A stretch of 64,000 nucleotides of DNA from Candidatus Rifleibacteriota bacterium (GCA_015233155.1 JADFYG010000010.1:34507-98506), one strand, 5' to 3'; positions 32,467 to 46,625 are shown, counted from the stretch's first letter. The notes: generated by a model not told the origin, from the sequence alone. Translations and numbers: made by a program.

Positions 32467-33531
32467 ATGAATACACATTTTATCCGTGTCCGCATCACCT
32501 TTCTGTCTTTTATTTCCGCCTTTTCCATGATTTTCACACCTTTCTGCACGGCAGCTTCGGCTGCCTCGCCTGACGACGCCGTCACTGCATCAGCAGCTGT
32601 TTCAGCGACAAATGAACCCAAAAACACTGATGAATCCATCAATCTGGCCGTAGGGGAGCTTATCGGGGAAGTTCTGCCGATGCGCAAAGCAGCTCTCGCA
32701 ACGAAAGTCAGCGGCCGTTTGGTTTTCGTGCCACTTTTCTCCGGCGAATCCGCCGCATCGGGAACCATTATAGCCACGATAGACCCGCGTGATTTCGAGC
32801 TGGCCGTGGAGCAGTCTCAGGCTGCTCTCGAGGCGGCGCGTGTGCGTTTGAAACAGCTCGAAACAGGCTTCCGGCCGGAGGAACGGCGTTCGGCGGCCGA
32901 GACTCTTAAACAGGCGCTGGCGAATCGCGACAATGCTCAGGCTGATTATCTGCGCATGCGCGACCTGTGCAAGGCGGGAGCCGTTTCCCAGCAGACGCTG
33001 GATGCCGCTGAAGCACGTGCAAAAGTAAACGAAGCCCAGTACATTGCCGCTCGCGAACAAAAATCTCTGGTCGACCAGGGGCCGCGACTGGAGGAAAAAG
33101 ATGGTGCACGCGCTACGGTCCGACAAATGGAAGCCACCCTTGATCTGGCCCGCCTGCAACTCGAGTTTGCAAGCATTAAAGCCCCGTTCGACGGTGTCAT
33201 TTCGCAACGCATGCTGGATGAAGGCGCCTATGTGACGAGCAGCAATCCGGTCTATACCATCATGCAGATCGATCCTGTGATTGTCGCCGTAGACTGCCCC
33301 GAACGTTTCGTTCCAAGTCTCTCAACCGGGCTCAAGGCCGTAATCAGTCTTGATGCATTGCCCGGAAGGAGTTTTTTCGGCACGCTTGACCGGCTTCCGG
33401 CGTTTCTTGATTCTAAAACCCGTGCAGCGCGGATAGAAATCACGGTTCCGAACCCGGAAAAGATTTTGAAACCGGGGATGTTTGCGCGGGTCCGGATTTC
33501 ACTTCCGGGGGAAAAGGCACCAGTAAAATGA
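32467..33531 (+). CDS. RND periplasmic adaptor (membrane fusion protein)
   Basis: KVSGRL, coiled-coil hairpin, IKAPFDGVI, LKPGMFARV. Confidence 0.9.
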   Translation: MNTHFIRVRITFLSFISAFSMIFTPFCTAASAASPDDAVTASAAVSATNEPKNTDESINLAVGELIGEVLPMRKAALATKVSGRLVFVPLFSGESAASGTIIATIDPRDFELAVEQSQAALEAARVRLKQLETGFRPEERRSAAETLKQALANRDNAQADYLRMRDLCKAGAVSQQTLDAAEARAKVNEAQYIAAREQKSLVDQGPRLEEKDGARATVRQMEATLDLARLQLEFASIKAPFDGVISQRMLDEGAYVTSSNPVYTIMQIDPVIVAVDCPERFVPSLSTGLKAVISLDALPGRSFFGTLDRLPAFLDSKTRAARIEITVPNPEKILKPGMFARVRISLPGEKAPVK

Positions 33532-36500
33532 ATCTCGCTGATATATGTATTCGTCGTCCTGTTTTTACTCTGATGATCATATCGGCAATGGTCGTACTGG
33601 GGGCGTTTTCTTACAGCGGCCTCGGTCTCGATCTGATGCCCAAAATGGACTTTCCGATCATACGCATCGCGGCAACGCTTCCGGGTGCGAGTCCGGAGGA
33701 AATGGAAACCCAGATCGCCAAACCAATTGAAGAAGCTGTCAACACAGCAGGCGGAATTGACGAAATCAACACAAAATGTCTTTTCGGGGCCGCGCAGATA
33801 GCCGTAAGATTCAATCTCGAAAAAGACATCAACGTCGCCGCCCAGGAAGTGCGCGATCGTATAGCCCGTATTCTGAAAGATTTTCCGGAAGGCACTGATC
33901 CGCCAATCATCGAAAAACTGGATCCGGATGCGTCACCAGTCATTACGCTCATCATTTCAGGAAAAATGGCGCTCCGTGAGCTGACCTTTTTTACGAAGAA
34001 ACATATCAAGGAACCGCTCGAATCGATTGAAGGCGTAGGTGCAATCCAGGTCGTCGGCGGACGCGAACGTGAAATACATGTCGAGCTTGATGCAAAAAAG
34101 CTTGGAGCCTACAATATATCGTCCACGCAGATACGCGATGCACTGCAGTCCCAGAATGTTGAAATACCCGGTGGTCAGGTAACCGAAAAAGACCGTGAGT
34201 TCGTTCTCAGAACCCTGGGACGCATTTATGATCCGGTCAAATTCGGGGAAGTGGTCGTCACAACACTGAACAACACGCCAATTTGCGTGAAAGATCTCGG
34301 AACAGTATATGACGGTGAGGCCGAGCCACGAACACTTGCGCGTCTCGACGGCGTTAACGCTCTTTCCCTCGTCATTCAAAAGCAGTCCGGAGTGAATACG
34401 CTCGATGTCATAGGACGCATCAAGAAACGCATTAAAGAGCTTTCCGTGAATTTCCCGGAGGGAATGTCGGTCGTTCCGGTTCGTGACCAGTCGGAGTTCA
34501 TCGAAAATTCTCTGCATGAGTTGAAGAAGCATCTGATACTCGGGGCCATATTCGCATCGCTCGTGGTTTTCCTGTTCATGCGAAATATCGTCTCGACATT
34601 CATCTCAGCCACGGCCATTCCCGTTTCGCTGATTTCAACGTTCCTTTTAATGCGCCTGATGGGCTTTACACTCAATAACATGTCCATGCTCGGCCTGACG
34701 CTGGCCGTTGGTATAGTCATTGATGATGCCATCGTTGTGCTAGAAAATATATTCCGTCACATGGAAGAAAAGCAGTCTGATGCGGTAACCGCAGCACATG
34801 AGGGAACAGCGGAGATTTACCTTGCTGTTATGGCGACGTCGCTTTCCCTGTCTGTAATTTTCGTTCCGGTTGCTTTCATGGAAGGCATCATCGGAAGATT
34901 TCTCAACAATTTCGGACTTACTATAGCCTTCGCCATTCTGGTGTCCGTCTTCGTTTCATTCAGTCTGACCCCAATGCTCTGTTCGCGTTTTTTCAAATAC
35001 AAATTCGCGCGTGGGGCCGGACACAGTAAAGATTCTAACTTCTATGCACTCATCGACTGGTCATACGGCAAATCTCTGAAATTTTCCCTGAAATATCGTT
35101 GGACAATAGTTTTAATTGCCGTCTGCTGTGTTCTTTCTCTCAAACCCATGGGAAAATTTCTGCGTTTCGATTTCATTCCTGCCGACGATACGGGTGAATT
35201 CAATGTAAGTTTCCGTGCAGATGAAGGATCATCACTCTATGGCACCGAAAACATTCTCAAGGAGATCGAAGCGAAAATCGGGAAACTCCCGGAAGTGAAA
35301 CACGTTTTCTCCACTATTGGTGAGGGTGTCGGAGTTGGCGTGAATGAAGCAAATATGTATATTCAACTCAACGGCATGGAGACGCGTAAACTCACGCAGT
35401 TCGAAATCATGGATCAGGCCCGGAAGATCATGAAGGATTACAAGGATATGCAGCCATCCGTTCAGGCAAACGGGGGAATCGGCGGACAAAAAACGATAGA
35501 TACTACATATGTCATCACCGGACCAGATCTCGACAAGATCAATGTTTATACAAAATCAATTATTGAGAAACTACGTCAGAGCCCGAAAGTCGGCAATGCC
35601 GATTCCAGCTTCATAGAACGGAAGCCGGAAGTACATGTCCGGCTCGATCGCGAGCGCGCGTATCGCATGGGAGTAAGACTCGATTCTGTTGCCGGATCAC
35701 TTCGCACACTCATCGGGGGTGCCGATCAGATAACACGCTACAAGGAAGCCGATGAATTGTATGAGGTGCGCGTGCGCCTTCGCGCGGAAGACCGCTCAAA
35801 TGCGGAGGCAATCGCCGGAATTCTGCTTCCGACAACTGGGGGCGCCCTGGTAAGGCTGGACACCATCGCTTCCGTGACACTCGGCTTCGGGCCGGCGGAA
35901 ATCGATCGCAAGGATCGCCAACGCAGCATAGCTGTCAATGCCAATTTGGCCAAGGGAGCCGCATTGAGCGAGATCAACGAGATTATTTCTTCCGCTGCAA
36001 GCATATTGAATATGCCTCCGGAATATGCAGGCGGATTCACCGGCCGTTCAAAAGAAATGGCCAGAACGGTCAAAGGCTTCATGGTCGCATTTTTCATGAG
36101 CGCGATCTTTATGTACATGATTCTTGCGTCCCAGTTCGAAAGTTTACTGCATCCAGTGACTATTATGTTTTCCTTACCTCTGTCCGTTCCTTTCGCGATC
36201 CTGTCGCTTCTTATCACCGGTGGAACGTTGAACATCTACTCGGCGCTGGGTATATTCATGCTCTTCGGCATCGTTAAAAAGAACGCCATTTTGCAGATAG
36301 ATTATACCAACACGCTTCGTGAGCGCGGATACGACCGGGAAAAAGCCGTTATCGAAGCGAACCACGCACGTCTGCGGCCTATTTTGATGACGACCGTCAC
36401 CCTGGTTGCCGGCATGTTGCCGATGGCCCTGGGAACAGGCGCCGGAGCTGCAACACGGTCTTCCATGGCCATCGTAATCATAGGCGGTCAAACGTTGTGC

Positions 36501-36596
36501 CTTCTTATTACGCTTCTCTTGACACCGGTTGCATACACGCTGTTCGACGATCTTATGGTATGGCTGACAAGCATTATGCCAAAACTGAAGACCTGA
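33528..36596 (+). CDS. RND efflux permease (AcrB/MdtB-like)
   Basis: IRRPV, LPGASPEEME, GIVIDDAIVVLENI, GIVKKNAIL, RLRPILMTT. Confidence 0.95.
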   Translation: MNLADICIRRPVFTLMIISAMVVLGAFSYSGLGLDLMPKMDFPIIRIAATLPGASPEEMETQIAKPIEEAVNTAGGIDEINTKCLFGAAQIAVRFNLEKDINVAAQEVRDRIARILKDFPEGTDPPIIEKLDPDASPVITLIISGKMALRELTFFTKKHIKEPLESIEGVGAIQVVGGREREIHVELDAKKLGAYNISSTQIRDALQSQNVEIPGGQVTEKDREFVLRTLGRIYDPVKFGEVVVTTLNNTPICVKDLGTVYDGEAEPRTLARLDGVNALSLVIQKQSGVNTLDVIGRIKKRIKELSVNFPEGMSVVPVRDQSEFIENSLHELKKHLILGAIFASLVVFLFMRNIVSTFISATAIPVSLISTFLLMRLMGFTLNNMSMLGLTLAVGIVIDDAIVVLENIFRHMEEKQSDAVTAAHEGTAEIYLAVMATSLSLSVIFVPVAFMEGIIGRFLNNFGLTIAFAILVSVFVSFSLTPMLCSRFFKYKFARGAGHSKDSNFYALIDWSYGKSLKFSLKYRWTIVLIAVCCVLSLKPMGKFLRFDFIPADDTGEFNVSFRADEGSSLYGTENILKEIEAKIGKLPEVKHVFSTIGEGVGVGVNEANMYIQLNGMETRKLTQFEIMDQARKIMKDYKDMQPSVQANGGIGGQKTIDTTYVITGPDLDKINVYTKSIIEKLRQSPKVGNADSSFIERKPEVHVRLDRERAYRMGVRLDSVAGSLRTLIGGADQITRYKEADELYEVRVRLRAEDRSNAEAIAGILLPTTGGALVRLDTIASVTLGFGPAEIDRKDRQRSIAVNANLAKGAALSEINEIISSAASILNMPPEYAGGFTGRSKEMARTVKGFMVAFFMSAIFMYMILASQFESLLHPVTIMFSLPLSVPFAILSLLITGGTLNIYSALGIFMLFGIVKKNAILQIDYTNTLRERGYDREKAVIEANHARLRPILMTTVTLVAGMLPMALGTGAGAATRSSMAIVIIGGQTLCLLITLLLTPVAYTLFDDLMVWLTSIMPKLKT

Positions 36597-36621
36597 AATT
36601 CGGTAATACTACAACGGCACG

Positions 36622-36709
36622 TCTCACGGAGCGCACGGAGAACGCAGAGAAAAGATCCGGAATCAGCTTTCTTGAAAAACGCTCTGTGGGCTTTGTGTCA
36701 TTTGTGAGA
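36622..36709. repeat. Empty inverted-arm element (9-bp period, TCTCAC...GTGAGA) at the left border of the defence island
   Basis: tctcacggagcgcacggagaacgcagag (36622-36649) and ctctgtgggctttgtgtcatttgtgaga (36682-36709). Confidence 0.75.
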
Positions 36710-36786
36710 AAAACAAAGTGCTGTTGAAGTAGTCAGAGACGGGGATAAAGGTCTCAGAAATATCGACAGTTATCATACACGCGCCC

Positions 36787-37938
36787 CTACATTCGTCGTT
36801 TAATCAGTACAGTGAACTTGTTTCCATCACGATCGTCTATAAAATCTATAGCTTTGTATTCTCTCAATGCTCTCTTGATTCCGCTTCCAAGTCCACGATA
36901 CGGCAACATTCTTGAAGCGAATGAAGCAAGAATTGGATTTCTTATATTTGAGTTTCCATTCTTGATATTTTCAATTGTTAAATTATTCGGCAAATGCCCC
37001 GGGCTAATGATTTCGATTCTATCTGCAAATACCAATAAACGAATTGGAGCCGTTATAAAATAATCTCTGTGAATCAAAGCATTTGCCACGAGTTCCTCAA
37101 AAACAATTCGTGGAATTTCGTCGTCGCCAACAGAATTGAAGCCTTGTTCGCCTTGAATGCTCCTCGTATTTGTCAAAAGAAATGCTAGAGAACGTTGAAA
37201 AACATCTGAAAGCCTGCCTGCAATGTCTTTACTATCCACATACTTTGTCTCTTCGATATCAGTGCCAGAAAACGCCACGGCCTTAACAATGAATGCGGGG
37301 AGCCTGAATTGCGGAGCTTGTGAAAACATTAATGCCCCTGCAACATTGAATACATCGCCATCAGCAAGATTCATATTATGTAGTAGTTGCGTGAGATTCG
37401 TTTCTGATTTATCCAGAGAAATCCCATACTCTTTCTCATAAAAAGAAGAAAAGAAGTCCATATCTATACTGGCTATCGAAATTCGATTTGCCGCAATCTC
37501 ATCGCCGTGGACCAACCCGGACTTCTGGAGCATTCGCTGGATTTCTTCCCGAGACGTCACTTTTCGTTTATCCGAACCGGACTTTACCCAAATCGCTCCT
37601 GAATTGTCCATGTATGGTTTGCTGAGTCCATCAGGTATTGTGACCACCATGACGATGCCATCAGGAAGTTTGACATTTTCGGTGCCGTAGTTAATCGGAG
37701 GTCGAACCGATTGTGAGCTTGCATTGGACAAAAGCTGATTCAGTCGCCCAATGTCATCTCTTTGAAGCCCTGCTATGGATCCGTCATTGTTCACACCTAT
37801 GAAGATCCTGCCACCGCCCGTATTACAGAATGCCACGATTTCTGCAGCAAGTGAGTCAACATTCGTGATGTTCGCCTTGAATTGATTCTTGCCGTCTTCT
37901 TCACGGCTGATTATTTCAATTAATTCCGAGGTTTCCAT
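36787..37938 (-). CDS. Schlafen/AlbA_2 domain + HATPase_c_4 ('RecG C-terminal-like') protein
   Basis: E...QFK, IVAFCNTGGGRIFIGV.NDG; ELVANALIHRDY, SPGHLP, RNPILA, GSGI. Confidence 0.85.
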   Translation of the reverse strand: METSELIEIISREEDGKNQFKANITNVDSLAAEIVAFCNTGGGRIFIGVNNDGSIAGLQRDDIGRLNQLLSNASSQSVRPPINYGTENVKLPDGIVMVVTIPDGLSKPYMDNSGAIWVKSGSDKRKVTSREEIQRMLQKSGLVHGDEIAANRISIASIDMDFFSSFYEKEYGISLDKSETNLTQLLHNMNLADGDVFNVAGALMFSQAPQFRLPAFIVKAVAFSGTDIEETKYVDSKDIAGRLSDVFQRSLAFLLTNTRSIQGEQGFNSVGDDEIPRIVFEELVANALIHRDYFITAPIRLLVFADRIEIISPGHLPNNLTIENIKNGNSNIRNPILASFASRMLPYRGLGSGIKRALREYKAIDFIDDRDGNKFTVLIKRRM

Positions 37939-40571
37939 ATCTCGTATATCTCCTTGCGGCGCTCGAACGCCTCCTCGCCACCTTCCATGATGTTGACGAT
38001 TTTCGCCTGCATATATGGATCATCAATACTGCCGGGGAAAGGATTGATTTTGTTGTCTGAGTATTCGCAGGCAATGACCATTTCCGCATCACCAAGAACT
38101 GGAAAATTTGGGTTATGCGTGGCAAAGACAAACTGGGTCTCACGCTTCAATTCATGAATGAGCTTTATGACATCCTGATAAATCGTCTGATTGTCCAGGT
38201 CGTCTTCAGGCTGATCGATCAGAATAAGATCATTTTCACGTTGACTCAGAACGAACAGCATGAGAGCGGATGCCCGCTGCCCAAGGGAATGGTCTTTAAG
38301 TTCTTTACCCCCGTATTTTATGGTGAACTTATCAGGAATCCGCCATATTAACAATGTCTCGAGTTGTCTGAGAAAAAATTCCCAAAACTTGAAACTGCTC
38401 TCTCCGAGTATTTGATCAGCTCGTTCTCTTTGCTCGAAGATAGCCCCCATATCAGGAAATTCGTCAACGAGCTTCTGTATTGTCGTATCTCGAAGGGCGC
38501 TTCCCTTGAGGGTTTCACGAAGGAATACCTTGAAGGCTCCCTTGTCAGCCTTGAATTCCGTTACGATGGCAAGAGAGGAGTGATTGTCGTTAACCTTGTT
38601 CATTTCCCCTTGGATAACCTGAAACTCCTGGTGCCAAAGACTGTTCAGACTGGAAAGCTCTTTCGCCAGCTCCTGGCGGATTTCATCAGACTTCGCCTGT
38701 TCCTTCTCAAGTTCGGCAAGAATTGCCTTCGATTGCTCCAATACCTTATTCTGTTGTCTGAACTCGTCAGGCCGTATCGTTGGAACCCCGGCAGCACGCA
38801 GTTCATCAGAGATACTGCGTTCGATAGAGGCAAATTCCTCCTTGAGCCCCCGAAAGATTCGCTCGAATTCCCCCTGCTTCTCACCCAACATCGCTCGCGA
38901 GGTCGCAAGAGAATCGCGTATTTGTTTGACCGAATCAATCAGCTTGACGATTGAACCATAAGCCACAAAGTAATCGGCAAAAAAAGGCTCGTTTTGCTTC
39001 GTCTTGTAGCGCGTATGATTTCTGAGAATGTCTTCATGCTGCATCAAAAGGTCGGATATCGCATCATGGAATGCAGTCACACTTTCGGAAATTTCTTTCA
39101 GTTTTCGCGAATCGGCGTCGAAATCGACCTGTTTTTGAAGCTTCTCTTCAAGGCCGTATTTCTTATAGCGCTCGAGCTGGAACTCGGCATTCTGCTTTTT
39201 AGCAGTATACTCATCCTTTCGGGTGGCAATGTTCGAAAGCTTCATATACCGACGCACAGCGCCCTGAACTTTTTGTTGCTGTTCTTCAATTTTTTGGCGA
39301 AGTTCCCGGGTTTTTTCGCCGATTAGTTTCTCGACCAGGTTTTTCTCGAACCCTTCTCCAGAGTTCGATAAGTCCTTCTGGCCAAAATACAGGGGCTTGT
39401 GAACAACGGTCTCGCAAATTGAAACTCCCGGCTGAAGCTCTCCATTTATCAGGACTTCAGGCCGGTGGTCCCAAATTCGTCGAACTTCGTATTCTTGCCC
39501 GAAACGATCGACGGAGATGATGGTTACCTTTCCGCCACTTCCCAATGTATGTTTGAGGAGCTTTTTCTTGTATTCAGCATCCGCTGGATTTTCACCGGCG
39601 GGAACATCCAAGGCAAAGCGTATTGATTCGACGATGGAGGATTTTCCGCTGCCGCGAACTCCTATCAACGAGTTCAGTTCGGGAGAAAAATCAAGTTTAT
39701 GCCCATCGAGTGTGCCACCATCGAATCTAATGGACCGGATGTAGGAACGGGTATGCTTTGGGATTTCCCTAGCGACCCGATGGAAGTGATCGCATAGAGC
39801 AAATTTCACCGCCTCGAAGGAAAAAGCGCCGATCTTAAGAAAACAGGGGTCACCTCGGCCAATTTCATCGTTATTCTTTGGGTCTGAGCCTTCAACCTCT
39901 GCCGGATATGAATCTCCAAGCCACATCTTTGCCTTCACTCGACACGGAACATCGGATTTGTCATGCGTTCGCACTTTCTGGAAGCCCCGGGCTCGTCGCT
40001 GAAAATACTCGGTCTTTCCCAACTCCGTTAGCCTTCCACCATCCATTTCTTGCCAAAGCCCGCTCGATTGTTCAACGTGCGCGAATATGATGAAAAAATC
40101 TCGATTGAAGCCCTCAAGTTTCTTGATAGTCTCGATGATGTTATCTTGGCTTCTTCCGTTCTCGCTCTCATAGTGAGAAGGCGTCTTTCCGGCAAACGTT
40201 ACATTGAGAAACTGGTTGATGTAATCTTGCCCTTTATCAAGCCAATCATCGCTAAATGTAACAACGGTGTGAATTCCATTTGATCCATCGTTGACCGACA
40301 ACTCAACACCGGGAAGCAAAAGGATTTCTTGCTTCTTGGCTTTTTTTCGAAGAGAGTCAAATTCGGCTTTATCGAATTTGTTATGATTGGCGATGACGCC
40401 AACACGGATTCCACACTTTGTCAGCGCATCGACGAAGTTGCCATTGTAAGAATTCTCATCGCCTGAAAATTTGAATTCCTTGTCGGCTTTCGTGTGCAAG
40501 TGAAAATCCGCTCTGACCCAGCGGGATCCATTTATAAAAATCTCAGGAATCTTGATCTCTTCGTTACTCAT
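37920..40571 (-). CDS. PHP phosphoesterase fused to an SMC/ABC-type ATPase (Ppl/TrlF-like defence protein)
   Basis: ADFHLHT, ANHN, PGVEL, FAHVE, EGSD; Walker A GVRGSGKS; coiled coil; SLGQR, IDQPEDDLDN, ATHN. Confidence 0.85.
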   Translation of the reverse strand: MSNEEIKIPEIFINGSRWVRADFHLHTKADKEFKFSGDENSYNGNFVDALTKCGIRVGVIANHNKFDKAEFDSLRKKAKKQEILLLPGVELSVNDGSNGIHTVVTFSDDWLDKGQDYINQFLNVTFAGKTPSHYESENGRSQDNIIETIKKLEGFNRDFFIIFAHVEQSSGLWQEMDGGRLTELGKTEYFQRRARGFQKVRTHDKSDVPCRVKAKMWLGDSYPAEVEGSDPKNNDEIGRGDPCFLKIGAFSFEAVKFALCDHFHRVAREIPKHTRSYIRSIRFDGGTLDGHKLDFSPELNSLIGVRGSGKSSIVESIRFALDVPAGENPADAEYKKKLLKHTLGSGGKVTIISVDRFGQEYEVRRIWDHRPEVLINGELQPGVSICETVVHKPLYFGQKDLSNSGEGFEKNLVEKLIGEKTRELRQKIEEQQQKVQGAVRRYMKLSNIATRKDEYTAKKQNAEFQLERYKKYGLEEKLQKQVDFDADSRKLKEISESVTAFHDAISDLLMQHEDILRNHTRYKTKQNEPFFADYFVAYGSIVKLIDSVKQIRDSLATSRAMLGEKQGEFERIFRGLKEEFASIERSISDELRAAGVPTIRPDEFRQQNKVLEQSKAILAELEKEQAKSDEIRQELAKELSSLNSLWHQEFQVIQGEMNKVNDNHSSLAIVTEFKADKGAFKVFLRETLKGSALRDTTIQKLVDEFPDMGAIFEQRERADQILGESSFKFWEFFLRQLETLLIWRIPDKFTIKYGGKELKDHSLGQRASALMLFVLSQRENDLILIDQPEDDLDNQTIYQDVIKLIHELKRETQFVFATHNPNFPVLGDAEMVIACEYSDNKINPFPGSIDDPYMQAKIVNIMEGGEEAFERRKEIYEIWKPRN

Positions 40572-41922
40572 GCGATTACTCTCCGGAATTCGTTGTCCCT
40601 TCCTTCGAAGGCCTCTCTTAATACAGCTTGCATCAGATCATTAGATTTTTCTTTCCGATCGGCGATTTGTGCTTCGAGATCGGAAACGATGGAAAGAAGT
40701 CGGGTGACACGCTCTACAATCAACTTCTGCTCAACCATGGAAGGAAGAGGTAATGGCATCCTGAGCAAATCCTCTCGCGTGACATTGTTCATGGATGTGC
40801 TTTTCTGAGTGCCAAGTGCATCAAAATACTTGATGCCATGACTTGATTTGTTATGGATGTCGATCAACCGAGCTGTTCGGGCGTGGAAAATAGAAATACG
40901 AATGCTTTTGTCGCTAAGCAATAAATTTCGGCTGCATTCATTGACCATACAGCATCTACCAGCAAGTCCTTTGCTCCCACTGGCACGACAAAACAGTAAA
41001 TCACCAATGTTTATTTTTTGCTAACATCACTTGGTTGGTTATCGGTGAATAACTTGTTTTCTGACTCTAAAAATTGGCCGGAGGTGATGGCACTTGTCTT
41101 GATAACCCCCCATGAACTGCCCTTAGCCTCTTTTTCTTTACACAAGAAACTTTTTCCAGCCTCCGCATATCGAATCAGTTCTCCTAAGTGACACCAAACC
41201 CAACCTTCCGGAAGTTGGAATGGCATTTCATCCAGATTGACCAGAGGCAAAGGCTTTTCTTTCTTGATCTCACCTTTGGCTATCAACTTCTGTTTTTCAA
41301 CTTTGATTTGTTCTAGAAGAGCCGCTGCATCATATTCCGAGTCACCTTTTCTTACCAAGTGTTCCTCTCGCCACTTCGCGGTCAACTTGCCTTCGATGGC
41401 GTCTTTGAGAATGGCTTGTCGAAGCCTCATAAGAATATCCGCATCCTCAGCATTTATGCAAACCATTGAATTCTTAATTTCTGAAATACAAGCAAGTTTT
41501 TTTCCGAATTTCTCTTGATGTTTTATTTCAAAGTAGGGGAGCCGATAATTCCCCAAATTTGTTTGATTAATAGATAGTTTGGCTGTACCGGTTGAAGTTT
41601 TTTTTACGATATCTTCCCTTAGAAAGTTAAATACACGATGATAGAATTTTAGAATAAGTTTTCGATTTTCCTTTGGTGTCAGAATAAAACACAAATCACT
41701 AGAGATAAATTTTCCTTTGAAATAGTGCGTTCGTCCAAGAGAGCCAGACGCGGCCATAGCGAATATCAATGCCTCACAATCATGAGAAAAATGAGTGTGA
41801 GTCTTCCACTCCTCCGCAGCAGTAATGAAGGTGTATTGGCCCGGAGTGCATTTTGAACTTTGAAGTGTTCCTTTTTGAAAATCAAACAATTCACTAATCG
41901 GAACCCACTCAGCCATTTCCAA
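40568..41922 (-). pseudogene. hsdS: Type I R-M specificity subunit HsdS, split by a 1-nt frameshift at an A6 run (41014-41019)
   Basis: 5' ORF has LRQAILKDAIEGKLT and PFQLPEGWVW, ending SKK*. Adding one A reads on as KKINIGDLLFCRASGSKGLAGRCC into the 3' ORF (PLPSMVEQKLIV...LMQAVLREAF). Confidence 0.9.
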
Positions 41923-43342
41923 GCTCCTTCTTCAAGGTCTCAAGGAGTATGTCACTTTTGCGGAATGACTCATGAAGCAAACTCAATAGTTCAGCGCTTG
42001 TGGATTGATATCCCACGTCGGATGTGTGCGGGTTCTTACTATCCAAACTGAACCCGTTCGCTTCCAGAGACTCTAATGAAACTTTCCACGACTGATCGGA
42101 TGGCTTTCTATCTCCCCACCAATCCTTCAATGCCGCAAATTCACTCTTCTGAATGGGCTTGGTTTTTGAATAGGCTTTGATGTCACTGGGAAGTTTGTGT
42201 TCCCAATACCAGATTTCCTTTGTCGGGTGCCCCTTAGTGAAGAAAAGGAGATTGGTTGCCACGCTGGCATACGGTTGAAACACGGAGTTGGGCAATCTGA
42301 CAACAGTATGCACATTACAGGTTTCTGGCAGGTGTTTGCGAATTCTCTGTTTAACCCCGTCACCCATAAGTGACCCGTCGGGAAGTACAATGGCTGCACG
42401 GCCGCCGTCCTTCAAGTATCTGACCATCAAAACCAGAAATAGATCTGCACTTTCGATTGTGCGATAGTTCTGTGGAAAATTCGTTTCAGCCCCATCAGTC
42501 ACGGACGCACCGAACGGGGGATTGGCCAGGATGACGTCAACCCTGTCCTTTTGACCGATTGAGCTGTATTCCCGATTGAGGCTGTCAGTATAGTCGATAT
42601 TCGGAACCTCGATATCATGGAGAATCAGGTTTGTCACGCAAAGCATAAAGGGGAGGGGCTTGAACTCCATTCCGTGGATGTGGGTTTCGAGAGTCTTGAG
42701 GTCTGCAAGGCCTTTTACGTCCTTCTTACGGATGTTCTCTATGGCAGATGTGAGAAAGCCTCCCGTGCCGCAGGCCGGATCAAGTCTTTTTTCCCCAAGG
42801 CGAGGGTCGATAATCTCTGTCATGAACTCCGTGATGGCACGCGGAGTATAGAATTCACCATAGTTGCCGGCGTTTTGAAGATCTCGGAGGATTGTTTCGT
42901 AGATATCGCCGAACACATGCCGGTCTTCGGAAAGATTGAAGTTTATTTTATTCAATTCGTTCAGCACCTGCCTAATAATGGTGCCGTTCTTCATGTAGTT
43001 GTTGGTGCCTTCAAAAATCTCACGAATAATTATTGAGCGCTTGTTTCCAGCGGCAACGTTGAGATTTTTCAGCGTAGGAAACAACTCTTTTTCAACAAAA
43101 TCCCGAAGTGCGTCACCGGTAATTCCTTCATCATCAGCCGCCCATGCCCGCCATTGACATTTTTTCGGTATTGGCGACCGGTACTTGTCATTCAACAGTT
43201 CAAGCTCTTGATCCTTATCATCAAGGATTTTCAGGGAAATAAGCCATCCAAGTTGTTCGATACGTTGGGCGTCGCCAGATACACCGGGATCCTTCCGCAT
43301 AATATTCTGCAAACTCTTGATGATATGCCCAATGTTTTTCAT
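41909..43342 (-). CDS. hsdM: Type I R-M N6-adenine methyltransferase HsdM
   Basis: IMRKDPGVSGDAQRIEQ, GEFYTPR, DPACGTGGF, ANPPF. Confidence 0.95.
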   Translation of the reverse strand: MKNIGHIIKSLQNIMRKDPGVSGDAQRIEQLGWLISLKILDDKDQELELLNDKYRSPIPKKCQWRAWAADDEGITGDALRDFVEKELFPTLKNLNVAAGNKRSIIIREIFEGTNNYMKNGTIIRQVLNELNKINFNLSEDRHVFGDIYETILRDLQNAGNYGEFYTPRAITEFMTEIIDPRLGEKRLDPACGTGGFLTSAIENIRKKDVKGLADLKTLETHIHGMEFKPLPFMLCVTNLILHDIEVPNIDYTDSLNREYSSIGQKDRVDVILANPPFGASVTDGAETNFPQNYRTIESADLFLVLMVRYLKDGGRAAIVLPDGSLMGDGVKQRIRKHLPETCNVHTVVRLPNSVFQPYASVATNLLFFTKGHPTKEIWYWEHKLPSDIKAYSKTKPIQKSEFAALKDWWGDRKPSDQSWKVSLESLEANGFSLDSKNPHTSDVGYQSTSAELLSLLHESFRKSDILLETLKKELGNG

Positions 43343-43358
43343 TATTTTGAAACCTTTT

Positions 43359-43819
43359 TCTCACGGAGCGCACAGAGGACCCGGAGTCTTTTTAACCAAA
43401 CCATTCTATATTTTGCCATTTATAACCCTTTTGATGCCATCTTTTACCAACACTTCATTAAAATTAATCAGCAAACCAAGTTTGATTTTAGATAATTTTA
43501 GGTATGAAAGCAATTGCTTAAAATGAATATCTTCAATTTTCTTTACTGACTTAATTTCAATGATCACGCAATTTTCGACCAAAACGTCAGCTCTAAATCC
43601 CTCATCGAAGACAATGTTTTCATAAGAAAATGAAATAGGCTTTTGAATTTCGATTCGCAAACCGCATTTTTCCAATTCATAGGCCATTACACGTTCATAT
43701 ACTGATTCTAAAAGCCCAGGCCCGATAGCAGAATGAACCTTTATTGCGCAGCTGATTATTTTTTCAGTGATTTCATTTTCTTTCACTCTTTCTCTGTGCC
43801 CTCTGTGATCTCCGTGAGA
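43359..43819. mobile_element. GxxExxY cassette bounded by 28-bp inverted arms
   Basis: tctcacggagcgcacagaggacccggag (43359-43386) vs reverse complement of 43792-43819, 23/28; additional partial arm at 43913-43930. Confidence 0.7.
43406..43786 (-). CDS. GxxExxY protein (PD-(D/E)xK nuclease superfamily)
   Basis: VHSAIGPGLLESVY, FRADVLVENCVIIEIKSV, QLLSYLKL, GLLINF; markedly AT-rich. Confidence 0.95.
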   Translation of the reverse strand: MKENEITEKIISCAIKVHSAIGPGLLESVYERVMAYELEKCGLRIEIQKPISFSYENIVFDEGFRADVLVENCVIIEIKSVKKIEDIHFKQLLSYLKLSKIKLGLLINFNEVLVKDGIKRVINGKI

Positions 43820-43935
43820 ATCGGTTCTTGTTTTTCATTTAAGAGTTCTCTGGGTTCTTCGTGTGCTTTATCAGAATTTCTTTTTGTATTCTTTCGTGTT
43901 CTCATTTTATTATTTGTGCACTCCGTGAGAATTTA

Positions 43936-46359
43936 TCACGCCGCAAGCTTATAAACCTCGTTTTCCAGCTCCGATAATGCTTTCAGATACCCGTCTTTTC
44001 CCCCGAACATGCTGATAATCTCGGCGGGAGTGCCGAGGCCGTTGATGGGTGGCGCCCGCAAGATGGAAAGCTCTTCAATGTCCTCGATACCGTTGTCCGC
44101 GTATTTGTCGAGAAGTGCGATCAGAACTGCTCGGGCCTTCTCCCCATATTTCTCAAAGTAGTTTCGCTTCTTTACTCTCGCGGCTCGTTCTCGGCGCGTA
44201 AGCGCGGGTTTGTCCCAGGCAACGTGGCAAATCAGATCGAATACATCAAGCTCTTTTTTAACCTCGGTCCAGAGATTTTCCAGGATTACCCCCTGCAGCT
44301 CGAGTTCATCAATCAGAACCTGCTTCTTATCAGCCGCCTGCCACCTGTTAAGAAACTCATCAAGGGTCTGGAACTCTTTTCTTAAACCCTTTCGCGTGAA
44401 GTCTTTCAGACTCTCGATAATCAGATGACCGTTTTGATCCAGGTATTGGTGCCGTTCATTCAAGACAGAAACCGAGACTCCCGCAACATATATTTTTGCG
44501 GCGGGTTGCGCAACAATTCCCCCACCCTCTACTATTTCAGGCGTTTCATAGAGTTCTGCGTCATCTTCAGAAGCGGATGGGCCGAAATCAATTGTTTTGC
44601 CGGATTCCGAATCGATGATTTCATCTTCGCCAACCCCTTCAACGTCCTCGGATGAAAGTTCGTCATTCGCAGCGACTTCCTTCACCATCACGGGGTCCCC
44701 GTCAAAAGCAGGATCAGCAAAAAGGTCGGTGACATTCCTGAAGTCCATTATGGCGAAAAACGTCTTCCCAAAATCCTCGTTGATGCGAGTCCCTCGACCT
44801 ATAATCTGTTTAAACTCAGTCATCGATCTGATACTCGAATCAAGCACGATCAATTTGCAGGTCTGTACGTCAACTCCCGTTGTCAAAAGCTTCGATGTGA
44901 CGGCGACAACTGGATGCGTTTCCTCAGGATCGATAAAGTTATCGAGTTCTCGTTTGCCTTCTTCTTCATCGCCCGTAATGCGCATGACGAACTTCGGATT
45001 CTCCTTCGTAAGGTCGGGAGCCACATTCGCGATGGCTTGCCTCATTCGCTCGGCGTGTTCGATATCAATGCAAAAAACGATCGTTTTCGAAAGCTCTCCG
45101 GCAATGCGAAGATACTCCATTACCTTTCGGGCAACGAGCGAAGTCCTTTCATCAATGACCAGATTCTTATCGAAATCTTTTGAATTATAGAGTCGATCTT
45201 CAACCGGAGTTCCCCGATTATCCGTCTTTCCCTGCTCGGGTCGCCACCCTTCGAGATCGACATTTATGCCGACTCGAATCACCTTGTAGGGTGCAAGAAA
45301 TCCGTCTTCGATACCCTGTTTCAAGGAATACGTATACAATGGTTCGCCGAAATATTCTATATTAGAAACCTGTTCGGTTTCCTTCGGCGTTGCTGTAAGA
45401 CCTATTTGAGTGGCACTTGAAAAATATTCGAGGACCACCCTCCACGCGCTGTCATCGGCGGCACTTCCACGATGGCATTCATCGACAACAATCAGATCGA
45501 AAAAGTCGGGACTAAACTCTCTAAAGGCGTCTTCTTGTCCACTAGAGTTGGTTAACCCTTGATACAAAGCCAGATAGATCTCATACGCCTTGTCGATCTT
45601 CTTGTGACGAATGACCGTCATTTTCTCTTTAAAGTGTTTAAAATCGCCTCTCTTTGTCTGTCTGATCAGTGCATTACGATCAGCAAGAAACAGAATTCTC
45701 TTCTTCGTGCCATTTTTCCAGAGCCGGTAGATAATCTGAAATGCGGTATATGTCTTGCCGGTTCCAGTGGCCATGACCAGAAGAACACGATTTTGCTCCT
45801 TTGCAATGGCCTCTACTGCTCGATTGATGGCAATCTGCTGATAGTACCTTGGAGCCCTGCCACTGCCATCATAAAAGTAGTCGTACGAGGCGACACACTC
45901 CTGATCGGTTGTCTTGATGCCCTTGTATATCTTATATTTCGCCCAAAGCTCCTCGGGTGAGGGAAAATCATCTAGACCTCTATGTTGCTCCACGACGCCG
46001 GAACTGCCGGTTCGATCATGCTCCAGGAAATTGTCTCCATTCGAGCTTAATGCAACGGGAATGTCCAGGATGGATGCATAAGAAAGAGCTTGCTGCATTC
46101 CGTCACCGACTTCATGATTATTGTCTTTTGCTTCAATAACGGCGACAGGAATATTCGGCTTATAGTAAAGAATATAGTCTGCCCGCTTTCTTTCTCCGCG
46201 AGCGGTTCTATTGCCTTTGACATATATGCGGCCATCCGTGAAAAAGACCTCTTCGCGAATTTGCCGTTCAACATCCCACCCTGCCTTAACCAGGGCGGGC
46301 AGTATGTATTTAGTACAAATGTCGCGTTCAGACAACTCCCTCTTATTCGTCATAGACAT
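43936..46359 (-). CDS. hsdR: Type I R-M restriction subunit HsdR (EcoAI/EcoEI-like)
   Basis: SERDICTKYI.PAL, ADYIL...IEAK, ATGTGKT, DECHR, LTATP, QIIGRGTR. Confidence 0.95.
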   Translation of the reverse strand: MSMTNKRELSERDICTKYILPALVKAGWDVERQIREEVFFTDGRIYVKGNRTARGERKRADYILYYKPNIPVAVIEAKDNNHEVGDGMQQALSYASILDIPVALSSNGDNFLEHDRTGSSGVVEQHRGLDDFPSPEELWAKYKIYKGIKTTDQECVASYDYFYDGSGRAPRYYQQIAINRAVEAIAKEQNRVLLVMATGTGKTYTAFQIIYRLWKNGTKKRILFLADRNALIRQTKRGDFKHFKEKMTVIRHKKIDKAYEIYLALYQGLTNSSGQEDAFREFSPDFFDLIVVDECHRGSAADDSAWRVVLEYFSSATQIGLTATPKETEQVSNIEYFGEPLYTYSLKQGIEDGFLAPYKVIRVGINVDLEGWRPEQGKTDNRGTPVEDRLYNSKDFDKNLVIDERTSLVARKVMEYLRIAGELSKTIVFCIDIEHAERMRQAIANVAPDLTKENPKFVMRITGDEEEGKRELDNFIDPEETHPVVAVTSKLLTTGVDVQTCKLIVLDSSIRSMTEFKQIIGRGTRINEDFGKTFFAIMDFRNVTDLFADPAFDGDPVMVKEVAANDELSSEDVEGVGEDEIIDSESGKTIDFGPSASEDDAELYETPEIVEGGGIVAQPAAKIYVAGVSVSVLNERHQYLDQNGHLIIESLKDFTRKGLRKEFQTLDEFLNRWQAADKKQVLIDELELQGVILENLWTEVKKELDVFDLICHVAWDKPALTRRERAARVKKRNYFEKYGEKARAVLIALLDKYADNGIEDIEELSILRAPPINGLGTPAEIISMFGGKDGYLKALSELENEVYKLAA

Positions 46360-46453
46360 TTATCATACACGAACTTGATCCACCCGCCAAGGTTGGCTGT
46401 AGTTAAGGGCAAACGTGTAATTTTGTCAGCATTGACGAGGTTTATAAGCTTGC

Positions 46454-46582
46454 TCTCACAGAGGCATTGAGAACACAGAGGTTATCGTTAGATTTTAAGA
46501 AGTGGACTTTTCAAAAAAAATTCGCGGTGTGTCTTTGCAGATTATTTTAGTTTTCTCCGTGATCTCTGCGGGCTCTGTGAGA
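46454..46582. repeat. Empty inverted-arm element at the right border of the defence island
   Basis: tctcacagaggcattgagaacacagag (46454-46480) and ctccgtgatctctgcgggctctgtgaga (46555-46582). Confidence 0.75.
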
Positions 46583-46625
46583 TTTTTTTGTCTGTCATTT
46601 TCTATAGTGTCATTTTTTTATAGTT

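What the first reader, a model, noticed from the sequence alone, without database searches (positions are those of the whole stretch)
36622..46582. GxxExxY gene in 9-bp-period inverted arms, with empty arm pairs capping both borders of a defence island: candidate undescribed mobility system
Seen: the same ~28-bp arm (TCTCAC[AG]GAG-NN-CAC[AG]GAG-NN-CACAGAG) forms inverted pairs three times. One pair surrounds the GxxExxY ORF (43359-43819) and two empty pairs of 88 and 129 bp (36622-36709, 46454-46582) mark the ends of the R-M/Ppl/Schlafen island. The left arms at 36622 and 43359 share 15 identical bases. No TSD, integrase, transposase or tRNA is visible. Known: GxxExxY proteins have a PD-(D/E)xK fold and no established function. 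Inference: the GxxExxY cassette is the autonomous unit and the empty pairs are non-autonomous derivatives, analogous to RAYT/REPIN. The arms could be the sites at which the island entered between two convergent RND genes.
Basis: partly seen in the sequence, partly recalled or inferred. Interest (0 to 1): 0.85.

Follow-up and report, generated by a model that had tools for sequence, protein, structure and literature searches.

The report
Heptad-armed mobile cassette carrying GxxExxY nuclease
A small nuclease gene framed by inverted runs of a 7-base motif is a discrete insertion between two restriction-enzyme genes, one member of a widespread, apparently undescribed class of hairpin-ended cassettes; the two empty hairpins nearby are gene-less relatives, not marks of how the defence island arrived.

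Summary
CACRGAG heptads at a 9-bp period form inverted pairs at all three places, and the motif is rare in the genome (about 8 loci in 6.3 Mb).

The GxxExxY unit is a discrete insertion. It lies exactly between the hsdR stop and the hsdM start, and really spans 43359-43931. Of 77 related metagenomic operons with a readable junction, 61 have stop and start abutting. Five carry a GxxExxY cassette with arms as its ends, five a decayed cassette, and one an 89-bp empty hairpin.

Across phyla, 36 of 45 GxxExxY genes have such arrays within 200 bp. The RCRGAK heptad class goes with GxxExxY (25/45) and not with four-helix-bundle cassettes (1/24). Heptads match between arms (87%) while spacers do not (53%). 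Two copies in one relative share homology that stops at the arm ends.

The closest described thing is the 23S rRNA intervening sequence with an ORF and tandem heptamers; the logic resembles RAYT/REPIN.

That the nuclease itself acts on the arms is inferred. One relative has 135 arrays and no GxxExxY gene.

The idea that the arms are island-entry sites is not supported. The empty hairpins sit 3' of ordinary genes elsewhere too.

The parts
33528..36596 (+). RND efflux pump gene 1 (AcrB family); left neighbour of the island
   Evidence: PF00873 E 3e-263
36606..36733 (.). Empty hairpin element ('88-bp pair'): arms 36622-36649 and 36682-36709 plus an outer stem; starts 10 nt after the RND1 stop
   Evidence: Sequence. 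RNA fold of the + strand -54.4 kcal/mol, z -5.7; of the - strand -32.6, z -1.2
36762..36781 (.). Left copy of a 20-nt direct repeat (18/20) that brackets the operon
   Evidence: the repeat finder D8; found nowhere else in the genome or in related loci
36787..37938 (-). Schlafen/AlbA_2 + HATPase_c_4 protein
   Evidence: Pfam
37920..40571 (-). TrlF-family AAA-like ATPase (Ppl-like only in part)
   Evidence: NF045780 558 bits, cut-off 350; PADLOC Ppl 131 bits, C-terminal part only
40568..40948 (-). hsdS fragment
   Evidence: Pfam and PADLOC
41011..41922 (-). hsdS
   Evidence: PF01420
41909..43342 (-). hsdM
   Evidence: PF02384 E 2e-67
43359..43386 (.). 3' arm of the cassette (as read along the gene): three heptads, outer end TCTCAC
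   Evidence: I2: 83% complementary to 43792-43820
43406..43786 (-). GxxExxY (PDDEXK_3) gene, 126 aa; catalytic D67, E77, K79 present
   Evidence: model pLDDT 93.7
43792..43819 (.). Inner 5' arm of the cassette
43820..43914 (.). Run of degenerate heptads, all in the 5'-arm orientation
   Evidence: Read from the sequence
43915..43931 (.). Outer 5' arm, 5 nt after the hsdR stop; true edge of the insertion
   Evidence: I8: 17 nt, 94% complementary to 43358-43374; junction comparison
43936..46359 (-). hsdR
   Evidence: Pfam ResIII, EcoEI_R_C
43943..43961 (.). 19-nt stretch at the hsdR 3' coding end; perfect inverted copy at 46435-46453
   Evidence: I6, 100%; unique in the genome
46352..46371 (.). 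Right copy of the 20-nt direct repeat; overlaps the hsdR start codon
46435..46453 (.). Inverted copy of the hsdR 3'-end 19-mer, abutting the left arm of the 129-bp hairpin
46454..46620 (.). Empty hairpin element ('129-bp pair', arms 46454-46481 and 46555-46582) plus a conserved tail; ends 6 nt before the RND2 stop
   Evidence: Family with copies on C125 (85% over 129 nt) and C138 (two copies), and a part on C99
46626..49664 (-). RND efflux pump gene 2; right neighbour of the island
   Evidence: PF00873 E 1e-247

Best explanation
The arms are the ends of a small palindromic mobile cassette. One copy (43359-43931) carries a GxxExxY gene, a minimal restriction-endonuclease-like PD-(D/E)xK nuclease. 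It sits as a discrete insertion between the hsdR stop codon and the hsdM start codon of a type I R-M operon. The two 'empty' pairs are gene-less members of the same repeat family. They lie just downstream of the two RND genes, as other copies lie downstream of ordinary genes. They are not scars of island entry.

Shown here:
- presence or absence of the cassette at orthologous junctions;
- arms as the exact limits of a duplicated unit;
- the link between gene and arms across phyla;
- constraint on the heptads but not on the spacers;
- arm type that follows the protein lineage;
- intact catalytic residues.

Inferred (about 45% likely): the GxxExxY protein binds the three RCRGAK heptads in each arm. 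It cuts at or near the element ends, or in a matching empty arm pair. That leads to copying of armed units, in the manner of RAYT with REPINs or of a homing endonuclease.

Also inferred: once the cassette is inside an operon, the arms pair in the transcript like the stem of a 23S rRNA intervening sequence. That may let RNase III cut the cassette RNA out.
For: - Insertion polymorphism. There are 80 metagenome loci with hsdM 74-81% identical, and 77 have a readable junction. Of these, 61 have the hsdR stop and hsdM start within 30 nt (often TAAATG). Five hold a GxxExxY cassette whose arms are its ends. Five hold a decayed cassette with the arms kept. One holds an 89-bp empty hairpin, and one holds other content between arms. 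On the hsdM tree the occupied state needs at least 9 changes, 5 of them forced by well-supported branches.
- Duplicate with arm-defined limits. In relative G014, two copies on one contig are 87% identical over 500 bp. Homology starts and stops at the outer ends of the arms, and the flanks are unrelated.
- Association. 36 of 45 GxxExxY loci from several phyla have an array of at least 3 units within 200 bp. Density is 3.6 per kb near the gene and 0.30 per kb elsewhere in the same loci.
- Specificity. RCRGAK pairs lie near 25 of 45 GxxExxY genes. They lie near 1 of 24 PF05635 genes and in 20 of 401 control windows.
- Heptads, not pairing, are conserved. Identity between the two arms is 304/350 at heptad positions and 31/59 at spacers, Fisher p 1e-8, over 16 cassettes.
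- Arm type follows the protein. Arm type needs 11 changes on the protein tree, against a mean of 24 in shuffles (0 of 200 as low). The two paralogues of G007 and of G014 group by arm type, not by genome.
- Same heptad in gene arms and in empty pairs of one genome: G000, G007, G038, G004.
- Nuclease. D67, E77 and K79 are nearly invariant. The fold is confidently PD-(D/E)xK. The one aligned homologue without arms (L040) has lost these residues.
- Precedent. In the Coxiella 23S intervening sequence an ORF lies inside a 28-bp terminal stem with three tandem GACAGAT heptamers, and RNase III cuts it out (PMC4990558, passages).
Against: - G021 (93% complete) has 135 arrays and no PF13366 match. Its arrays belong to a composite non-coding repeat. 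G013 (67% complete; 9 arrays, control count 0) also lacks the gene. G024 lacks it too, but its 19 arrays stand against 10 control hits.
- Of the 30 genomes with fewer than 9 arrays, 8 still have the gene.
- PF05635 four-helix-bundle genes, which are not nucleases, sit in the same kind of inverted tandem-repeat frame. The frame therefore does not need a nuclease cargo.
- In G030 the arms mostly occur singly or stacked beside other structured modules.
- No target-site duplication or consistent target was found.
- For the RNA step: differences between arms are as often compatible with pairing in the antisense strand as in the sense strand (61 against 62). Spacers are not complementary. The six empty hairpins of this genome show no consistent sense-strand advantage.
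- Arm type following the protein is also expected simply because the arms and the gene are inherited together.
- No binding or cleavage data exist.
Confidence: 0.55

Rival explanations
1. Passenger model. The heptad arrays are REP/BIME-like mosaic repeats of the host, or are moved by some other enzyme. GxxExxY is merely cargo, or a gene that tends to land in such hairpins, and has a function of its own (for example defence or addiction) that has nothing to do with the arms.
For: G021 has 135 arrays without the gene, inside a composite non-coding element. G030 arms are stacked with other modules. PF05635 genes sit in the same frame. The hsdR-hsdM junction also takes up ordinary genes without arms, so it is a tolerant slot.
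Against: The RCRGAK heptad class is specific to GxxExxY genes (25/45 against 1/24). It is kept from Bacteroidota to Gammaproteobacteria and Chloroflexota while the spacers drift. Arm type follows the protein lineage. The genome's only Y1 transposase gene has different hairpins and no heptads.
Confidence: 0.3
2. RNA-level model. The arms matter mainly as an RNA stem, as in 23S rRNA intervening sequences. RNase III cuts the stem and frees the cassette RNA from the operon transcript (or ends and stabilises the upstream mRNA in the case of empty hairpins). The protein does not recognise the arms.
For: The Coxiella precedent, with heptamers and RNase III. All 6 intact and 5 decayed cassettes at the hsdR-hsdM junction point the same way as the operon. 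The 88-bp hairpin folds 22 kcal/mol better on the strand of the RND1 mRNA. Duplex energy favours the sense strand in 18 of 25 cassettes, p 0.04.
Against: There is no excess of G-U-compatible changes on the sense strand (62 against 61). Spacers are not complementary, so the stems are 7-bp blocks broken by internal loops. The six empty hairpins split 2 sense, 1 antisense and 3 neutral. In general the gene is not notably co-oriented with its neighbours (both flanks the same in 15 of 38 loci, crude ORF calls). This model also does not explain how the units reach new sites.
Confidence: 0.25
3. The arm pairs at 36622 and 46454 are the recombination sites at which the R-M/ATPase/Schlafen island entered between the two RND genes.
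For: Three of about 8 arm loci in 6.3 Mb lie within 10 kb, at the two borders and inside the island. By my own rough estimate the chance of this is below 1e-3. Short copies of both hsdR ends lie beside the border hairpins.
Against: Each border hairpin directly follows an RND stop codon. Other family members lie between housekeeping genes with no island nearby. G007 has a heptad hairpin after the RND1 orthologue and then a housekeeping-type gene, while G019 of the same genus has a plain terminator there. No recombinase gene is on the contig. The 20-nt direct repeat that brackets the operon lies inside the hairpins, not in them.
Confidence: 0.05
4. GxxExxY is a working accessory subunit of this type I R-M system, and the arms are regulatory signals within the operon.
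For: The gene recurs at exactly the hsdR-hsdM junction in several branches of this R-M family. The GxxExxY proteins at this junction form one clade. The fold resembles the HsdR nuclease domain, among many others (Z 7.2).
Against: 61 of 77 related operons do without it, and 5 carry it broken. None of 49 other GxxExxY loci has an hsdR/M/S relative within the 2-6 kb held (tblastn with this window's proteins, E <= 1e-4). L003, a member of the same protein clade, is not in an R-M context.
Confidence: 0.07

Closest known systems
23S rRNA intervening sequences with an ORF (Coxiella, Leptospira; S23p / PF05635)
   Same: A unit of about 430-570 nt with a small ORF between terminal inverted repeats. Tandem heptamers (three GACAGAT in Coxiella) lie just upstream of the start codon. 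The unit is inserted in a transcribed host gene and is sporadic among relatives. Decayed ORFs occur, and an old proposal holds that the ORF once served mobility (PMC4990558, passages read).
   Different: The host site here is an mRNA junction between two genes, not helix 45 of 23S rRNA. The cargo is a PD-(D/E)xK nuclease, not a four-helix bundle. The arm period is 8-9 nt with non-complementary spacers, not a near-perfect 28-bp stem. Gene-less copies are dispersed in intergenic DNA. RNase III cutting was not tested here.
RAYT / REP-REPIN systems (recalled, not read here)
   Same: A low-copy nuclease-type gene is flanked by inverted copies of a short motif. Gene-less inverted pairs of that motif are scattered between genes, and the motif type is specific to genome and lineage.
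   Different: RAYT is a Y1 HUH transposase (PF01797), while GxxExxY is PD-(D/E)xK. A REP is itself a small palindrome, whereas here each arm is a direct array of three heptads. Copy number in this genome is only about 8. Activity on the repeats is unproven.
MITE-like bacterial palindromic repeats (Correia, ERIC, BIME; recalled)
   Same: Intergenic units of 90-190 bp that are imperfect palindromes, often 3' of genes, mosaic or nested in some genomes.
   Different: No target duplication or matching transposase was found. The arms have an internal heptad periodicity. An ORF-bearing version exists.
Free-standing homing endonuclease genes (recalled, including the PD-(D/E)xK enzyme I-Ssp6803I)
   Same: Sporadic presence at one conserved host junction, with intact, decayed and empty states side by side. 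The gene encodes a small nuclease.
   Different: GxxExxY cassettes lie in many unrelated contexts. A single conserved target is therefore unlikely unless the target is the arm pair itself.
Cyanobacterial STRR heptanucleotide repeats (recalled; only a search listing seen)
   Same: Short tandem heptamer arrays in intergenic DNA.
   Different: I know of no described link to framed ORFs. This was not examined here.

Membership tests
GxxExxY / PDDEXK_3 protein family | Match to TIGR04256 and PF13366 above the curated cut-offs | tested here: met
   145.1 bits (cut-off 35) and 139.5 bits (cut-off 22)
GxxExxY / PDDEXK_3 protein family | PD-(D/E)xK core with GxxExxY helix, D, and ExK | tested here: met
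   G24, E27 and Y30 invariant; D67, E77 and K79 at least 90% conserved in 24 sequences. Model pLDDT 93.7; nearest folds are restriction-endonuclease-like, Cas4 and Hjc, Z 6.8-8.5
RAYT/REPIN | Y1 HUH transposase (PF01797) gene flanked by the repeats | tested here: not met
   The framed gene is PD-(D/E)xK. The genome's only PF01797 gene (C16) has other hairpins and no heptads
RAYT/REPIN | Gene-less inverted repeat pairs of the same motif dispersed between genes | tested here: met
   About 7 gene-less loci in G000. Up to about 140 array hits in relatives
RAYT/REPIN | Repeats present only where the enzyme gene is present | tested here: inconclusive
   8 of 11 array-rich genomes have the gene, against 8 of 30 array-poor ones. 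G021 has 135 arrays and no gene. Related genomes are not independent
23S rRNA intervening sequence | Located in helix 25 or 45 of 23S rRNA | tested here: not met
   It lies between hsdR and hsdM. No Rfam match in 36000-47500 at E <= 1
23S rRNA intervening sequence | ORF enclosed by terminal inverted repeats with tandem heptamers | tested here: met
   compared with PMC4990558
23S rRNA intervening sequence | Excision from the transcript by RNase III | not testable with these tools
   No sequencing run was listed for this stretch
MITE / IS-derived element | Terminal inverted repeats plus target-site duplication and a related transposase-bearing parent | tested here: not met
   Inverted ends are present. 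No duplication was seen at 3 junction sets. No transposase lies in or near the unit
Homing endonuclease gene | Sporadic presence, decay and absence at one conserved host site | tested here: met
Homing endonuclease gene | Enzyme cuts the empty allele | not testable with these tools
   Needs a biochemical assay
Integron cassette / attC | Integron integrase nearby and a single attC at the 3' end of each cassette | tested here: not met
   No tyrosine recombinase on the contig. Arms lie on both sides of the ORF

The most novel reading that the evidence does not exclude
GxxExxY proteins are the enzymes of a second, independent RAYT/REPIN-like system that spans many bacterial phyla. In this reading, a minimal PD-(D/E)xK nuclease reads arrays of RCRGAK heptads and spreads heptad-armed palindromic units, with or without the gene, into intergenic and inter-cistronic sites. 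The ORF-bearing 23S rRNA intervening sequences would then be cousins of the same element class, giving a function both to a large 'unknown' protein family and to the old puzzle of where intervening sequences come from.
Probability: 0.35. Interest if true: 0.85.

Novelty: new variant of a known kind. Interest (0 to 1): 0.7.

Why it matters
PDDEXK_3/GxxExxY is a large family spread across prokaryotes. The 2012 superfamily survey lists its function as 'Unknown' (PMC3424549, one passage). My full-text searches found no paper that links the family to flanking repeats.

This work yields a concrete hypothesis that can be tested at the bench: heptad arrays as the substrate. It also ties the gene to a defined element class, with clear cases of the same site occupied, decayed and empty.

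Three further points follow:
- It links the ORF-bearing intervening sequences of 23S rRNA, called selfish elements of unknown origin in PMC4990558, to a wider set of framed cassettes that sit in ordinary operons.
- For annotation, short 'hypothetical' ORFs and N-terminal extensions that read through such arms are likely artefacts.
- For work on defence islands, a small nuclease gene between hsdR and hsdM need not be part of the R-M system.

Tried and rejected
- Rfam scan of 36000-47500 at E <= 1: no match.
- PDB sequence search with the protein: nothing at E <= 0.01. Foldseek found nothing at E <= 0.001 (best 1.5e-3, Cas4 SSO0001). The wide structural search gave only generic PD-(D/E)xK neighbours, Z at most 8.5. 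The fold therefore does not single out a specific function.
- Test of the empty RND-RND junction: no genome of the same genus is held. RND1 orthologues at 62-73% identity have other neighbours. This test could not be done.
- The 20-nt direct repeat at the operon ends was not found in 80 related loci at up to 4 mismatches, nor elsewhere in the genome. Whether it is an attachment-type repeat stays open. In a 10-kb self-comparison I estimate about 0.08 such pairs by chance.
- Sense-strand RNA selection on the arms was rejected as a general rule, though one energy test leaned that way.
- General co-orientation of the cassette with its neighbours is unremarkable (crude stop-to-stop ORFs).
- G030 arm loci: I looked at 20 of about 29. 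Most are single or stacked arms next to other structured modules. I did not work out what they frame.
- Expression: no sequencing run was listed for 43300-44000.
Supplementary files of papers were not asked for. Those of PMC3424549 might list more on PF13366.
- Papers: PMC4990558 and PMC3424549 were read as passages only. The myRT preprint was read for one passage, which mentions GxxExxY only as a neighbour domain. RAYT/REPIN, Correia/ERIC/BIME, STRR details, I-Ssp6803I and the homing-endonuclease life cycle are recalled, not read.
- Rows dropped: 3 of 80 metagenome loci lacked the upstream junction. 4 of 20 cassettes gave no phased units, and 3 of the remaining 16 were visibly mis-phased, which inflates spacer identity. 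Weak PF13366 matches (E > 1e-15; 5 of 23 places) were not examined for arms.

Full report
**What is in the sequence.** The core motif CACRGAGNNCACRGAG, with up to one mismatch, occurs 9 times in the 64-kb window, all in those three places. The expectation is 0.03, and none of 100 shuffles reaches 9. The window lies on contig C11 of a 6.31-Mb, 84%-complete assembly. In the whole genome the relaxed motif CRCRGAGNNCRCRGAG occurs only 11 times: 7 on this contig and 4 at three other contigs. The arms are therefore real, non-random and rare.

The framed ORF (43406-43786, minus strand) is a clear GxxExxY/PDDEXK_3 protein. It is the only one in the assembly. It lies on the minus strand in the order hsdR, GxxExxY, hsdM, hsdS, an hsdS fragment, a TrlF-family ATPase and a Schlafen/AlbA_2 protein. 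This operon sits between two convergent RND pump genes. There is no tRNA in the window, and no tyrosine recombinase on the contig.

- A further arm (43915-43931) lies 5 nt after the hsdR stop and pairs best with the far arm at 43358-43374 (17 nt, 94%). The inserted unit therefore runs from 43359 to 43931. It has a stretch of degenerate heptads between its outer and inner 5' arms.
- The 88-bp pair has an outer stem and folds over 36606-36733.
- The 129-bp pair belongs to a repeat family. There are copies on C125 and C138 (two) and a partial one on C99, with a conserved tail beyond the right arm.
- A perfect 19-nt inverted repeat flanks hsdR. One copy is the last coding bases of hsdR, next to the outer 5' arm. 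The other abuts the left arm of the 129-bp hairpin. It is unique in the genome.
- A 20-nt direct repeat (18/20) brackets the whole operon, inside the two hairpins.

**The cassette is a discrete insertion.** I fetched 80 metagenome loci whose hsdM is 74-81% identical and located hsdR, hsdM and GxxExxY in them. The junction could be read in 77.
- In 61, the hsdR stop and hsdM start are within 30 nt, often as TAAATG.
- In 5 (L109, L172, L118, L123, L142), a GxxExxY gene sits exactly between stop and start, with heptad arms as the outermost inserted bases.
- In 5 (L100-102, L106, L128), the same arms enclose a broken ORF.
- L097 has an 89-bp empty hairpin with ACCACGAAT-type arms.
- L127 has 314 bp of other sequence between arms.
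- 4 hold ordinary extra genes without arms.

On the hsdM tree the occupied state needs at least 9 changes, 5 of them forced by well-supported branches. The GxxExxY proteins at this junction form one clade, together with L003, which has no R-M gene within the 4.5 kb held. One old insertion followed by repeated decay and loss, with occasional transfer, fits as well as repeated gain. I could not decide between the two. I found no target-site duplication.

**Arms as the limits of a moving unit.** Relative G014 has two cassette copies 5.4 kb apart on one contig, 87% identical over 500 bp. The similarity begins at the outer base of the 5' arm and ends at the outer base of the 3' arm, and the flanks are unrelated. 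This is the most direct sign that the armed unit as a whole is what gets copied.

**The link between gene and arms is general and specific.**
- In 27 loci from other phyla (Bacteroidota, Cloacimonadota, Ignavibacteria, Nitrospinota, Chloroflexota and a gammaproteobacterium) and 18 loci from 41 relatives, 36 of 45 genes have an array within 200 bp. An array here means at least three 7-mers at an 8-10-bp period. Density is 3.6 per kb near the gene and 0.30 per kb elsewhere in the same loci.
- The unit varies by lineage (CACAGAG, CGCAGAG, CACAGAT, GCAGATT, CACGGAA, CACAAAG) but stays within R-C-R-G/A-A-K.
- Pairs of RCRGAK lie near 25 of 45 GxxExxY genes. They lie near only 1 of 24 PF05635 four-helix-bundle genes of the same relatives, and in 20 of 401 control windows.
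- The PF05635 genes are framed too, but by other and longer tandem units such as CAGTGGT, GGTGAAGT or TAAGCTC.

**What is conserved in the arms.** Between the two arms of a cassette, heptad positions agree in 304 of 350 cases. Spacer positions agree in 31 of 59 (p 1e-8; 16 cassettes, a few mis-phased, which raises the spacer figure). Differences between arms are as often of the kind that would keep a G-U pair in the sense transcript (62) as in the antisense one (61). The heptads are thus held as sequence, not just as partners in a stem. That is what one expects of protein-binding sites.

On the protein tree, arm type needs 11 changes against a mean of 24 in shuffles. The two paralogues of G007 and of G014 pair up by arm type across genomes. 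This fits recognition, but linkage of the gene and its arms also predicts it.

**The protein.** An alignment of 24 sequences keeps G24, E27, Y30, D67, E77 and K79. The AlphaFold model is confident (pLDDT 93.7). Its neighbours are restriction-endonuclease-like folds: Cas4, type II enzymes, an HsdR nuclease domain and Hjc, at Z 6.8-8.5. None stands out. L040, the one aligned homologue without arms, has lost the catalytic residues.

**The empty pairs and the island.** Each border hairpin directly follows an RND stop codon, by 10 nt on the left and 6 nt on the right. The other family members in this genome lie between a PRK-like and a DUF2400 gene, between an amine oxidase and a DUF2298 gene, between two methyltransferase paralogues, and at two further ordinary spots.

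Downstream of RND1 orthologues, three relatives have plain terminators. G007 has an empty hairpin there whose CACGGAA heptad matches the arms of that genome's own GxxExxY gene. G019, of the same genus, has none. Border placement is therefore what these elements do at 3' ends of genes, and nothing ties them to entry of the island.

What does need explaining is that 3 of about 8 loci lie within 10 kb. The copy of the hsdR 3' end beside the right hairpin suggests local copying or recombination between arms. I cannot say which.

**Gene presence and array number.** Counting CACRGAK pairs in 41 genomes gives 11 genomes with 9 or more hits, of which 8 have PF13366. Of the 30 genomes with fewer hits, 8 have it. 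The main exception is G021, with 135 hits, no gene, and 93% completeness. There the arrays are two nested layers around a hairpin-rich non-coding core. In G030 the arms are mostly single or stacked. The frame can therefore spread, or at least persist, without a resident GxxExxY gene.

**Comparison with what is known.** The closest described object is the ORF-bearing intervening sequence of 23S rRNA. In Coxiella this is a 428-444-nt unit with a 28-bp terminal stem and three tandem GACAGAT heptamers before the start codon. It carries an S23p ORF that is decaying, and RNase III cuts it out. The authors call it selfish and cite the older idea that the ORF served mobility (PMC4990558, passages).

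The anatomy also parallels RAYT/REPIN (recalled), but the enzyme class differs. The genome's only Y1 transposase gene has other hairpins.

Full-text searches for GxxExxY, PDDEXK_3, TIGR04256 and PF13366 found no paper on the arms. The 2012 survey lists the family's function as unknown.

**Verdict.** It is unproven about who moves them, and wrong about island entry. I rate this a new variant of a known kind, with real interest because it gives a large orphan family a testable substrate.

Noticed in passing
window 43943-43961 and 46435-46453: A perfect 19-nt inverted repeat flanks hsdR. One copy is the last coding bases of hsdR beside the cassette's outer arm. The other abuts the left arm of the 129-bp hairpin, with 12 nt missing between the 19-mer and the arm. 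It suggests copying or recombination between arm-bearing junctions. The mechanism is unexplained.
   Followed up: partly
window 36762-36781 and 46352-46371: A 20-nt direct repeat (18/20) brackets the seven-gene operon, from the hsdR start codon to 6 nt past the last stop. It may be an attachment-type repeat or chance (about 0.08 expected in a 10-kb self-comparison, my estimate). It is absent from related loci.
   Followed up: partly
window 37920-40571: The 883-aa ATPase is TrlF family by NCBIfam (558 bits, cut-off 350), with a PHP-like N-terminus.
   Followed up: yes
L063-L092 (relatives): Four-helix-bundle (PF05635, S23p/Avd-like) genes are framed by long inverted arrays of other short tandem units (period 6-8). 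This looks like a sister class of framed cassettes.
   Followed up: partly
G038 contig C41, about 2-27 kb (L031, L044, L078, L065, L085): Two GxxExxY and three PF05635 cassettes lie on the same strand within 27 kb. In two loci a downstream ORF begins with a sequence I took by eye, untested, for a nucleotide-sugar epimerase. Cassettes seem to pile up between genes of long accessory operons.
   Followed up: no
L197-L201 (G021): A composite repeat of about 300 bp: two nested arm layers (TCACACTAAG... and ACCACAGAG...) around three conserved hairpins. About 135 array hits in that genome and no GxxExxY gene. The core might be a structured RNA.
   Followed up: no
L184, L189, L191, L194 (G030): Single arms sit next to a conserved module of about 70 nt that begins GGGGTCA and ends TGACCCC. 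Other loci have a GGGACAGG...CCTGTCC hairpin. Their identity is unknown.
   Followed up: no
L146/L148 and L160/L171: The hsdR-hsdM junction of this R-M family also holds ordinary extra genes (657 aa and 334 aa) that are translationally coupled and have no arms. The junction is a general slot for accessory genes.
   Followed up: partly
L100-L102, L106, L128: Decayed GxxExxY cassettes. The N-terminal part of the ORF is replaced by an unrelated insert rich in its own inverted repeats (GTCATTGCGAGCGAAGCGAAGCAATC...), while both arms are kept.
   Followed up: no
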